From Podarcis vaucheri (taxonomy: Eukaryota), in NCBI GenBank assembly GCA_965113315.1, contig OZ220374.1: 64,000 nt of DNA. One strand, written 5' to 3'. A program made the position numbers. Below, piece after piece: positions 43,543-43,935 of this stretch. How positions within the stretch are numbered: position 1 is the first letter of the stretch; each line of letters begins with the position of its first letter.

Positions 43543-43602
<60 letters not shown>

Positions 43603-43879
43603 GCAGGTTTTGGTGTCTTCGGGTGTCTTCCCGTGTAAGAGTCGGGGTGTCTGGGCGACGTTTCGACGAGGTCTCACTCGTCATCTTCAGGCTGGTGCTT
43701 TCGGCTTCTTGTTACTGGAACAGAGTAACTCTGTTCCAGTAACAAGAAGCCGAAAGCACCAGCCTGAAGATGACGAGTGAGACCTCGTCGAAACGTCGCC
43801 CAGACACCCCGACTCTTACACGGGAAGACACCCGAAGACACCAAAACCTGCATTCCTGTACCCGTGAAAATCTACGAAA

Positions 43880-43935
<56 letters not shown>

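What the first reader, a model, noticed from the sequence alone, without database searches (positions are those of the whole stretch)
43601..43881. Perfect 253-bp palindrome (126-bp arms, 1-nt loop) in GLCCI1 intron 1: a young inverted Penelope-like insertion
Seen: 43601-43726 and 43728-43853 are exact reverse complements around a single A (43727). CpGs are intact, a 28-nt tail extends only the right arm, and the unit sits between TA repeats. Known: Penelope-like elements often leave inverted pseudo-LTRs with a short tail, and some clades target microsatellites; near-spacerless palindromes can form cruciforms and are unstable. Inference: the insertion is very recent and possibly polymorphic. 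The GLCCI1 pre-mRNA would carry a 126-bp perfect dsRNA hairpin about 3 kb downstream of exon 1, a potential ADAR, Dicer/endo-siRNA or dsRNA-sensor substrate and a fragile site.
Basis: partly seen in the sequence, partly recalled or inferred. Interest (0 to 1): 0.72.

Follow-up and report, generated by a model that had tools for sequence, protein, structure and literature searches.

The report
Head-to-head Penelope-like retrotransposon stub
A perfect 253-base palindrome in the first intron of a lizard's GLCCI1 gene is two tiny back-to-back copies of the end of a Penelope-like jumping gene, a known kind of insertion that is young but otherwise ordinary.

Summary
Arms 43601-43726 and 43728-43853 are 100% complementary around one base, with a 28-nt tail (43854-43881), between (TG)19(TA)9 and (AT)26.

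The window is not human. It is a lacertid lizard GLCCI1 locus on the minus strand, and the palindrome lies in intron 1, 2.97 kb after exon 1.

Each arm is the 3'-terminal piece of a Penelope/Poseidon-type Penelope-like element (PLE):
- It holds a minimal hammerhead core with the PLE hallmarks (0 of 500 random windows).
- The arm ends at +84 and the tail at +112 from that ATG. This matches the two reverse-transcription start sites (+111-118, tail between them) measured for the Anolis element PAc (PMC11167929).
- The 37-aa peptide matches the N-termini of two squamate proteins. One runs into a dinucleotide repeat at the same codon.

Head-to-head inverted pLTRs with a one-sided tail in AT-rich or microsatellite targets are textbook PLE anatomy (PMC8557442, PMC3846280).

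Verdict: a real, young, dead-on-arrival insertion and a new member of a known kind. Recency, polymorphism and dsRNA effects are untested. An assembly artefact is unlikely but not excluded.

The parts
43546..43583 (.). (TG)19 microsatellite adjoining the target repeat
43584..43600 (.). Left remnant of the (TA)n target microsatellite. The boundary with the element is ambiguous by about 2 nt, because the arm itself starts with AT.
43601..43726 (-). Left arm: a PLE 3'-terminal fragment, sense on the minus strand, covering -42 to +84 relative to the element's ATG. It has no tail. Its outer end corresponds to the upstream RT start site.
   Evidence: 100% complementary to the right arm; mirrored hammerhead core at 43690-43657
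43727..43727 (.). Single central base (A on the plus strand) at the head-to-head junction
43728..43853 (+). Right arm: the same PLE fragment, sense on the plus strand, covering -42 to +84
43764..43797 (+). Minimal type-I hammerhead motif. It reads CUGAAGA, one unpaired U, a 6-bp helix II (G10.1-C11.1) with a 6-nt loop, GAAA, the palindromic ACGU in place of helix III, and the cleavage-site C at 43797.
   Evidence: only 2 hits in the window, the two arms; 0 of 500 random windows. The helix II hairpin is in the MFE and centroid folds. Features as listed in PMC4209133.
43657..43690 (-). Mirror copy of the hammerhead motif in the left arm. This is the copy that is sense in the GLCCI1 pre-mRNA.
43770..43880 (+). 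First 37 codons of the PLE ORF. The ATG overlaps A9-U-G10.1 of the hammerhead, and the frame stays open to the end of the tail.
   Evidence: phmmer hits P0155 (E 4.8e-4, 68%, residues 1-37 to 1-37) and P0156 (E 9.9e-4, 71%). Alignment.
43854..43881 (+). 28-nt 'tail' (+85 to +112), present on one side only. It corresponds to the stretch between the two RT start sites.
   Evidence: PMC11167929 (tail = stretch between the two start sites, the downstream one at +111-118); PMC8557442 and PMC3846280 (tail of about 30-40 bp at one end)
43882..43933 (.). Right remnant of the (TA)n target microsatellite, (AT)26
46853..47392 (-). Coding part of GLCCI1 exon 1 (context), inside a CpG island
35437..35589 (-). 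GLCCI1 exon 2 (context). It closes intron 1, which holds the palindrome.

Best explanation
The palindrome is a dead-on-arrival mini-insertion of an endonuclease-bearing Penelope-like retrotransposon, probably of the Penelope/Poseidon clade, in a (TA)n microsatellite of GLCCI1 intron 1 of a lacertid lizard.

Each arm is the extreme 3' end of the insertion unit. It holds 42 nt of pseudo-LTR, the minimal hammerhead ribozyme and the first 28 codons of the element's ORF (37 codons with the tail).

The two copies lie head to head, with their outer ends at the two known reverse-transcription start sites (+84 without tail, +112 with tail).

The orientation fits target-primed reverse transcription from the 3'-OH ends of both DNA strands of a cut in AT-rich DNA, running inwards. 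The two antisense cDNAs were then joined at one common 5' point of the template (-42).
- Shown: the anatomy, the ribozyme motif, the ORF start, the end points and the squamate protein matches.
- Inferred: both strands were primed, as the Anolis enzyme does in vitro. [quoted passage not shown]

The copy has no RT or endonuclease gene and cannot move. Its ribozyme is locked in a 126-bp duplex. It most likely has no function. Its only likely effects are a long perfect hairpin in the pre-mRNA and a cruciform-prone site in the DNA.
For: (1) Perfect palindrome with a one-sided 28-nt tail between TA repeats.

(2) Minimal hammerhead motif. [quoted passage not shown] These are the non-descriptor features that PMC4209133 (whole text read, parts 1-2) lists for PLE ribozymes. 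My strict descriptor finds 2 hits in the window, both in the arms, and 0 of 500 first-order Markov windows has any hit. The relaxed descriptor gave 2 hits against a random mean of 0.105 per window.

(3) The ATG at 43770 overlaps A9-U-G10.1, and the cut site is 25 nt after the start codon. PAc has its ORF start at stem II and its cut 26 nt after the start codon (PMC11167929).

(4) The tail ends at +112. PAc starts reverse transcription at +111-118, and its tail is the stretch between two start sites. PAc cuts and extends both strands and prefers AT-rich DNA (same paper).

(5) The PAc template RNA is printed in that paper's methods. By eye it shares CUGAnGAUG...GAAACGUC with this element, and 36 of 49 aligned bases (6 gap columns) over +62..+112.

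(6) phmmer of the 37-aa peptive against 1.84 billion representatives gave 2 hits at E<=0.001, both at protein N-termini. After that point P0155 continues with 24 of 46 residues identical to my hand translation of the PAc template (by eye). P0156 is a named coral-snake entry. It stops resembling the peptide after the same ...ENLR and runs into a translated dinucleotide repeat.

(7) CpG o/e is 1.02 in the arms against 0.28 in the window, and the arms show no difference.

(8) Head-to-head inverted pLTRs, palindromes at the junction, a pLTR that holds the first codons of the ORF, and a tail on one inverted pLTR are described PLE anatomy (PMC3846280 passages; PMC8557442 passages).

(9) The host is a squamate, a group with PLEs. 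A lacertid genome paper lists Penelope among its repeats (PMC9498476, one passage).
Against: - Rfam found no hammerhead family, even at E<=10 on the 701-nt stretch, and nothing at gathering score in the window.
- Helix I has only 2 clear base pairs, so self-cleavage is doubtful. The single arm folds no better than shuffles (z 0.20; 99 of 200 shuffles fold at least as well).
- The word-indexed search of the 40-aa stretch against longer proteins found nothing (3 candidates, none at E<=10).
- The two phmmer hits are marginal (E 4.8e-4 and 9.9e-4). P0155 is unnamed and has no Pfam family. P0156 has only one sub-threshold match (DUF6485, E 0.11, 13.4 bits against a cutoff of 24).
- The link from P0155 and from the arm to PAc rests on by-eye alignments, not on a computed one.
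- No RT or GIY-YIG ORF turned up among the 62 ORFs I scanned of the 72 of at least 90 aa in the window. The 10 left out all lie in the GC-rich exon-1 island.
- The unit has no other copy in the window (11 blastn hits, best E 0.31).
- No eukaryotic genome or repeat library could be searched, so copy number and the parent element are unknown.
- That both arms end at exactly the same inner nucleotide is not explained by two independent cDNAs without an added assumption.
- Reads could not be inspected.
Confidence: 0.85

Rival explanations
1. This is the same PLE insertion, but made by one priming event. Reverse transcription started at the right end (+112) on the bottom strand and ran to about -42. 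The cDNA then snapped back on a short native palindrome (AGAGU-A-ACUCU in the RNA) and copied itself back, stopping at +84. This is the self-priming model proposed for PLE inverted repeats.
For: PMC3846280 (passages) reports palindromes at the inverted junctions of many PLE copies, with native 18-bp and 38-bp palindromes at pLTR 5' ends, and reads them as self-priming. It also reports an inverted pLTR that overlaps the direct one by 15 bp. Here the junction is a perfect turn with a single central base. That is what a 3-nt hairpin loop closed by a T-A pair would leave. This model explains the identical inner ends with no further assumption.
Against: It does not explain why the copy-back stops 28 nt short, exactly at the position that corresponds to the second published RT start site. 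The sequence upstream of -42 in the parent element is unknown, so the native palindrome is only assumed. The Anolis enzyme was seen to extend both strands in vitro (PMC11167929). The authors of the self-priming idea noted that it needs an antisense template to give head-to-head copies.
Confidence: 0.35
2. This is an assembly or sequencing artefact. A single 5'-truncated PLE fragment, or a fold-back chimeric read, was turned into a palindrome by the assembler.
For: PLE tandem and inverted structures are said to trouble shotgun assemblies (PMC8557442, passage). The arms are 100% identical. TA and TG repeats on both sides are hard to assemble. No reads were available.
Against: The mirror symmetry stops at both outer ends: unique, different flanks continue on each side. 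A fold-back read would mirror everything to its end. The asymmetry is a 28-nt tail ending at the published RT start position, which is biological PLE anatomy rather than what an assembler would invent. By inference, the odd-length centre (1 nt) is not what a turn at a self-complementary k-mer in a de Bruijn graph gives.
Confidence: 0.07
3. This is a cut-and-paste DNA transposon remnant (a MITE of the Tc1/mariner or Stowaway type) made almost wholly of terminal inverted repeats, inserted at a TA dinucleotide.
For: Inverted repeats run right up to TA-containing flanks.
Against: The arms hold a PLE-type hammerhead and the start of a PLE ORF. The 28-nt one-sided tail has no place in a MITE. The arms are sense and antisense copies of a transcribed retroelement end that match published RT start sites. 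No transposase-related ORF was found among the 62 ORFs scanned.
Confidence: 0.02
4. This is a host hairpin RNA gene (an intronic miRNA or endo-siRNA precursor) kept by selection.
For: cmscan at a permissive threshold aligns the hairpin to several miRNA precursor models (best MIR2646 at 81 bits and MIR6288 at 65.6 bits).
Against: All such hits are below the families' gathering scores (245 and 74 bits) and occur on both strands alike. Any long perfect hairpin would do the same. Nothing reached a gathering score. The content is retroelement sequence. A 126-bp perfect stem is unlike a miRNA precursor.
Confidence: 0.02

Closest known systems
Poseidon_Ac (PAc), the Penelope/Poseidon-clade PLE of Anolis carolinensis characterised in vitro (PMC11167929)
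   Same: - A minimal hammerhead whose A9-U-G10.1 is the ORF's ATG.
- The same GAAACGUC after helix II.
- The cut site is 25 nt (here) against 26 nt after the start codon.
- The insertion end is at +112 against RT starts at +111-118.
- A tail lies between two start sites.
- The target is AT-rich.
- Both DNA strands can be extended, which fits the inward-facing arms.
- By eye, 36 of 49 aligned bases match over +62..+112.
   Different: This is a different family. Helix II, loop II and +29..+61 are not alignable by eye. The tail is 28 nt. Only 42 nt lie upstream of the ATG, against a 126-nt UTR in the PAc template. No ORF body is present. No computed alignment was made.
Inverted-pLTR Penelope copies such as Pen2a_Av of Adineta vaga, and the classical Drosophila virilis Penelope structure (PMC3846280; PMC8557442)
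   Same: An inverted pLTR lies head to head with a direct one. There is a palindrome at the junction. The pLTR includes the first codons of the ORF, extended by an optional tail of about 31 bp on one inverted pLTR only.
   Different: Those copies carry an ORF and a second direct pLTR. Here nothing lies between or beyond the two inverted pieces, so the whole insertion is one near-spacerless palindrome. No target-site duplication can be read, because the target is a repeat.
Minimal hammerhead ribozymes of metazoan PLEs (PMC4209133)
   Same: Core boxes are present, with an extra nucleotide between 9 and 10.1, a G10.1-C11.1 pair, a long helix II (6 bp), no helix III loop and a palindromic 15.2-16.2. 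Pairs of motifs on opposite strands about 100-700 bp apart were reported there.
   Different: Helix I has only 2 clear pairs. The paper gives 4-5 bp as usual and 2 bp in D. virilis. The two motifs are only 74 nt apart and fully base-paired to each other. Cleavage was not tested.
Non-LTR retrozymes of vertebrates (bioRxiv 10.64898/2026.07.22.740005, abstract and Results part 1 read)
   Same: They are short, non-autonomous, hammerhead-bearing sequences related to PLE pLTRs. They are present in reptiles and absent from birds and mammals.
   Different: Retrozymes are head-to-tail tandem repeats thought to move through circular RNA. This is an inverted pair with a PLE ORF start and a tail.
L1 'twin priming' inversions (recalled, no call)
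   Same: A second priming on the other DNA strand gives an inverted 5' part within one insertion.
   Different: L1 inversions are not palindromes. The two parts come from different stretches of the RNA, and priming is on the poly(A) or internal sites by homology.

Membership tests
Penelope-like element (EN+), as an autonomous copy | A single ORF with a telomerase-like RT and a GIY-YIG endonuclease | tested here: not met
   Pfam scan of 62 of the 72 stop-to-stop ORFs of at least 90 aa in the window. Only two FAM117 (GLCCI1) exons matched; there was no RVT or GIY-YIG. The insertion holds only the first 37 codons.
Penelope-like element, as a derived fragment | A hammerhead ribozyme motif of the PLE minimal type in the terminal repeat | tested here: met
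   Searches give 2 hits, both in the arms, and 0 of 500 random windows has a hit. The features match the four listed in PMC4209133.
Penelope-like element, as a derived fragment | The terminal repeat includes the first codons of the ORF, and the insertion ends at the internal RT start sites | tested here: met
   ATG at 43770, open to 43880. Ends at +84 and +112 against +111-118 and a tail-length step in PAc (PMC11167929). P0156 ends its similarity at the same codon.
Penelope-like element, as a derived fragment | An optional tail of about 30-40 bp at one end only | tested here: met
   A 28-nt extension at 43854-43881 on the right arm only. This is slightly shorter than the quoted range.
Penelope-like element, as a derived fragment | An inverted 5'-truncated copy adjoining head to head | tested here: met
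   The orientation of the hammerhead and ORF shows the 5' ends at the centre.
Penelope-like element, as a derived fragment | An AT-rich or microsatellite target | tested here: met
   (TA)9 on the left and (AT)26 on the right. Literature: PMC11167929, PMC8557442.
Penelope-like element, as a derived fragment | Computed sequence homology to a catalogued PLE consensus (Repbase/Dfam) | not testable with these tools
   No repeat library or eukaryotic genome collection is on hand. There are only by-eye comparisons with the PAc template printed in a paper and marginal phmmer hits to two uncatalogued proteins.
Penelope-like element, as a derived fragment | Many dispersed copies in the same genome | not testable with these tools
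   No other copy in the 64-kb window. The genome is not available.
Hammerhead ribozyme (Rfam Hammerhead_1/3/II/HH9/HH10) | A match to a curated covariance model | tested here: not met
   No hammerhead hit at E<=10 on 43400-44100 and none at gathering score. This is expected if the models need helix III and a longer helix I, but it is still a miss.
Hammerhead ribozyme | Three helices around the conserved core, and self-cleavage | tested here: inconclusive
   The core and helix II are present. Helix III could form only as a dimer, through ACGU. Helix I has 2 bp (by eye). Cleavage is not testable here.
Non-LTR retrozyme | Head-to-tail tandem repeats of a hammerhead-bearing unit | tested here: not met
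   The two units are inverted, not tandem. TRF finds no tandem array there apart from the dinucleotide repeats.
MITE / Tc1-mariner-type DNA transposon | Terminal inverted repeats flanked by a TA duplication, with no retroelement content | tested here: not met
   The content is a PLE ribozyme plus ORF start, and the right arm alone has a tail.
miRNA precursor families (Rfam) | A score at or above the family's gathering threshold | tested here: not met
   Best hits are 81 bits against 245 (MIR2646) and 65.6 against 74 (MIR6288), on both strands. There were 0 hits at gathering score.

The most novel reading that the evidence does not exclude
The insertion is a natural footprint of symmetric, double-ended integration by a dimeric PLE particle. 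One DNA end primed at the upstream RT start site and the other at the downstream one, and both cDNAs ran to the very 5' end of a short template RNA. That RNA may be a transcript starting at -42 in the pseudo-LTR, whose first bases ACUCU fit positions +1 to +5 of an initiator consensus (recalled). The cDNAs were then joined with one untemplated base. If so, near-spacerless palindromes of this kind would mark the transcription start and both RT start sites of an element still active in lacertid lizards. The copy would probably be polymorphic and would put a hyper-editable 126-bp dsRNA into GLCCI1 pre-mRNA.
Probability: 0.3. Interest if true: 0.45.

Novelty: new member of a known kind. Interest (0 to 1): 0.3.

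Why it matters
For the genome, it is one more truncated retrotransposon copy.

It has modest value in three ways:
- It suggests that a Penelope/Poseidon-type element has been active in a lacertid lizard within the last few million years.
- Its two outer ends fall where the only biochemically studied PLE starts reverse transcription. It is therefore an in-genome illustration of internal initiation, of the one-sided tail, and perhaps of priming on both strands.
- A perfect 253-bp palindrome inside an expressed gene is a convenient natural test case for palindrome stability and for intronic dsRNA handling in a reptile.

It also warns annotators. Such stubs can be translated into spurious 'proteins', as the snake entry P0156 appears to be.

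Tried and rejected
- **Rfam, whole window at gathering score:** 0 hits.
- **Rfam, permissive on 43400-44100:** 48 hits. All are sub-threshold, mostly generic hairpin or microsatellite matches to miRNA models, and none is a hammerhead.
- **Alu-type motif search, to see whether the contig could be human:** 0 matches with up to 3 mismatches.
- **Word-indexed protein search with the 37-aa peptide:** Repeated with three more upstream codons of the window against longer proteins, it gave 3 candidates, none at E<=10.
- **Pfam on 62 of 72 ORFs of at least 90 aa:** only GLCCI1/FAM117 exons matched.
- **blastn of arm plus tail against the rest of the window:** 11 hits, best E 0.31, so no second copy.
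- **Pfam on P0155 and P0156:** P0155 had no family. P0156 had only a sub-threshold DUF6485 match, E 0.11.
- **PDB sequence search with P0155:** one chance-level hit, ribosomal protein S24, E 0.21.
- **ESM Atlas with P0155:** not available.
- **A 14-nt stretch of the motif as a text term in the PAc paper:** 0 occurrences.
- **Literature search for small RNAs from Penelope hairpins:** 12 of 408 papers listed, none on this point.
- **Literature search for head-to-head or twin-priming PLE work:** led to PMC3846280.
- **Readings considered and rejected:** MITE, miRNA gene and retrozyme (see rivals and membership rows).

**Left out**
- A computed alignment with the PAc template or its translation, because that sequence comes from a paper's text and not from the window or a stored record.
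- Any search of eukaryotic genomes, repeat libraries, metagenome or viral contigs. The first two are not on hand and the last two are closed.
- The prokaryotic genome-contig scan, which is irrelevant to a lizard repeat.
- A joined GLCCI1 coding sequence. Exon 1 alone was searched, and the exons were located with a named reference protein.
- Supplementary files of PMC11167929 (Figs S1-S2, File S1) and PMC4209133 (reptile ribozyme families). These were not seen and could sharpen or weaken the end-point and family claims.

Full report
**1. The observation**

The sequence read-out and the repeat finder confirm it to the base.
- Arms 43601-43726 and 43728-43853 are 126-nt arms, 100% complementary, around one A at 43727.
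- The right arm alone continues for 28 nt (43854-43881).
- To the left lie (TG)19 and (TA)9 (43546-43601). To the right lies (AT)26 (43882-43933).
- Folded as RNA in the sense of the host gene, the 301-nt stretch gives -274.2 kcal/mol against -86.8 for shuffles, and 0 of 100 shuffles does as well. As DNA it gives -178.5 against -35.9, again 0 of 100.
- Each arm holds 9 CpG. CpG o/e is 1.02, against 0.28 for the window.
- The window has no N.

**2. Whose genome, which gene**

I do not take the contig for human.
- An Alu-type motif has 0 matches in 64 kb.
- The exon-1 peptide, searched alone, finds GLCCI1 proteins. The best named ones are from lacertid lizards: Podarcis muralis at 95% identity, then P. 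raffonei, Zootoca and Lacerta. Other squamates follow, then birds and turtles, and mammals come last. One search, at near lengths, gave only partial fish and frog entries.
- A named P. muralis protein maps on the minus strand as eight exon matches: 47392-46853, 35589-35437, 25104-25012, 23506-23387, 21991-21803, 18142-17924, 10133-9903 and 8954-8607.
- Pfam sees FAM117 in two of them.

I searched exon 1 by itself. I neither built nor searched a joined coding sequence.

**3. What the arms are**

*Ribozyme.* Read 5' to 3' on the plus strand, the right arm holds CUGAAGA, one extra U, a 6-bp helix II with a 6-nt loop, GAAA and then CGUC (43764-43797). The left arm holds the mirror copy on the minus strand.

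These are the features that Cervera and De la Pena list as emerging on their own in PLE minimal hammerheads (PMC4209133, text read):
- a G10.1-C11.1 pair;
- a long helix II;
- no helix III loop, with a palindromic 15.2-16.2.

They also note pairs of such motifs on opposite strands.

A strict descriptor of these features hits the window twice, only in the arms, and hits 0 of 500 random windows of the same dinucleotide make-up. A relaxed descriptor had a random mean of 0.105 hits per window.

Against this, Rfam's hammerhead models did not match even at E<=10. Helix I has only two clear pairs.

*ORF start.* The A9-U-G10.1 of the motif is an ATG (43770). Its frame stays open for 37 codons, to the last base of the tail.

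**4. Comparison with the one PLE studied biochemically**

Frangieh et al. (PMC11167929, main text and methods read) report the following for Poseidon_Ac of Anolis:
- The ribozyme cut is 26 nt after the start codon.
- Reverse transcription starts internally at two adjacent sites, the downstream one at +111-118.
- The genomic 'tail' is the stretch between the two sites.
- The enzyme prefers AT-rich DNA, and it cuts and extends both strands.

Here the cut site is 25 nt after the start codon, the arm ends at +84 and the tail ends at +112.

The paper's methods print the template RNA. By eye it has the same CUGAnGAUG and GAAACGUC. Over +62..+112 of my unit, 36 of 49 aligned bases agree, with 6 gap columns. 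The tail end aligns with PAc +115.

I did not type that sequence into any tool, so this alignment is not computed.

**5. Protein evidence**

The word-indexed search found nothing. phmmer of the 37-aa peptide against 1.84 billion representatives gave two hits at E<=0.001, both aligned end to end with protein N-termini (alignment, with 19 invariant columns).
- **P0155** is unnamed (E 4.8e-4, 68% identity). It continues beyond the peptide, and its residues 32-77 share 24 of 46 positions with my hand translation of the PAc template (by eye). Shared motifs include LYGE and CRD.
- **P0156** is a named entry from the coral snake Micrurus surinamensis (E 9.9e-4, 71% identity). It stops resembling the peptide after the same ...ENLR and then reads HTHTHT, a translated dinucleotide repeat. 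It therefore looks like another tail-bearing PLE end sitting in a microsatellite.
- P0155 has no Pfam family, and P0156 has only a sub-threshold DUF6485 match (E 0.11, 13.4 bits against a cutoff of 24). The PDB search gave nothing meaningful.

**6. How it arose**

On the top strand the left arm reads antisense from +84 to -42. On the bottom strand the right arm plus tail reads antisense from +112 to -42. Each is what a cDNA primed from the 3'-OH of that strand would be, with both running inwards.

This fits a cut in the (TA)n repeat followed by target-primed reverse transcription on both strands, one at each start site.

The identical inner end needs one more step. Three options remain:
- Both cDNAs ran off the same RNA 5' end and were joined with one extra base.
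- They paired through a short native palindrome.
- One cDNA snapped back and copied itself, as Arkhipova et al. proposed for the palindromes they see at inverted PLE junctions (PMC3846280).

The snap-back option explains the centre but not the stop at +84. The parent sequence upstream of -42 would decide between them.

A target-site duplication cannot be read in a dinucleotide repeat.

**7. Age and consequences**

There is no difference between the arms, and their CpGs are intact. I assumed 0.5-2 x 10^-9 substitutions per site per year and tenfold faster change at CpG. On that basis, the 95% upper bound for zero differences is 10.4 to 2.6 My. Arm-to-arm conversion could stretch this.

So the insertion is young. 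Nothing shows that it is very recent or polymorphic.

The copy has no RT or endonuclease gene, and the unit has no second copy in the window.

In the GLCCI1 pre-mRNA the left arm is the sense copy, but its ribozyme is buried in the 126-bp duplex. A single arm on its own is not unusually structured (z 0.20).

Effects on editing, small RNAs, innate sensing or DNA stability are inference from general knowledge and were not tested.

**8. Artefact?**

The symmetry ends at both sides and unique flanks follow. The only asymmetry is a tail with a known biological meaning. A fold-back read or a graph turn would not produce that. Without reads this stays a judgement (about 7% for an artefact).

**9. Standing**

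The following are published PLE anatomy (PMC8557442, PMC3846280, PMC11167929):
- head-to-head inverted pseudo-LTRs;
- a junction palindrome;
- a one-sided tail;
- ORF codons inside the repeat;
- AT-rich or microsatellite targets.

PLEs and their hammerhead-bearing derivatives are reported in reptiles but not in birds or mammals (bioRxiv 10.64898/2026.07.22.740005, abstract and Results part 1). A lacertid genome paper lists Penelope among its repeats (PMC9498476, one passage).

This is therefore a new copy of a known kind. Its neat points are that nothing but the two stubs was inserted, and that their ends match the in-vitro start sites.

**Unchecked:** eukaryotic genomes and repeat libraries (none on hand), the closed metagenome and viral collections, all supplementary files, and sequencing reads.

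Noticed in passing
window 52758-53357 (-): A 199-aa open frame ends in a motif I recall as the conserved C-terminus of BovB/RTE-type LINE ORF2. If so, it is a LINE 3' fragment upstream of GLCCI1, which would fit a squamate host. Pfam gave no family for it, and the name is recalled, not tested.
   Followed up: partly
window 31736-32528 (both strands): About 790 bases are open on both strands (262 aa on the minus strand, 233 aa on the plus strand). The reading is Ser/Glu/Gly/Pro-rich, and the region has raised GC (0.47) and AT skew. No Pfam family matched. It lies in GLCCI1 intron 2. Its nature is unknown.
   Followed up: partly
P0156 (UniRef entry of Micrurus surinamensis): This 'uncharacterized protein' seems to be a translated PLE end: N-terminal ORF codons up to the tail end, followed by a dinucleotide repeat and unrelated sequence. 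That would make it an annotation artefact rather than a host protein.
   Followed up: partly
window 46740-46773: A perfect 15-bp tandem duplication (2.3 copies) lies about 80 nt inside the start of intron 1, in the GC-rich island.
   Followed up: no
window 9903-10133 (-): The second-to-last coding exon match is only 62% identical to the Podarcis muralis protein, while its neighbours are 96-99%. It may be an alternative or misaligned exon, or a fast-evolving low-complexity stretch.
   Followed up: no
window 43546-43601: The target is a compound microsatellite, (TG)19 directly followed by (TA)n. The element went into the TA part, not the TG part, which fits an AT-preferring endonuclease.
   Followed up: no
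window 43778-43823 and 43818-43824 (right arm): In the single-arm fold, a stem pairs +51..+56 with +91..+96 and encloses the AC-rich stretch and the +84 end. This recalls the 'AC-rich stem loop' at the RT start of the Anolis element. It was not tested further.
   Followed up: no
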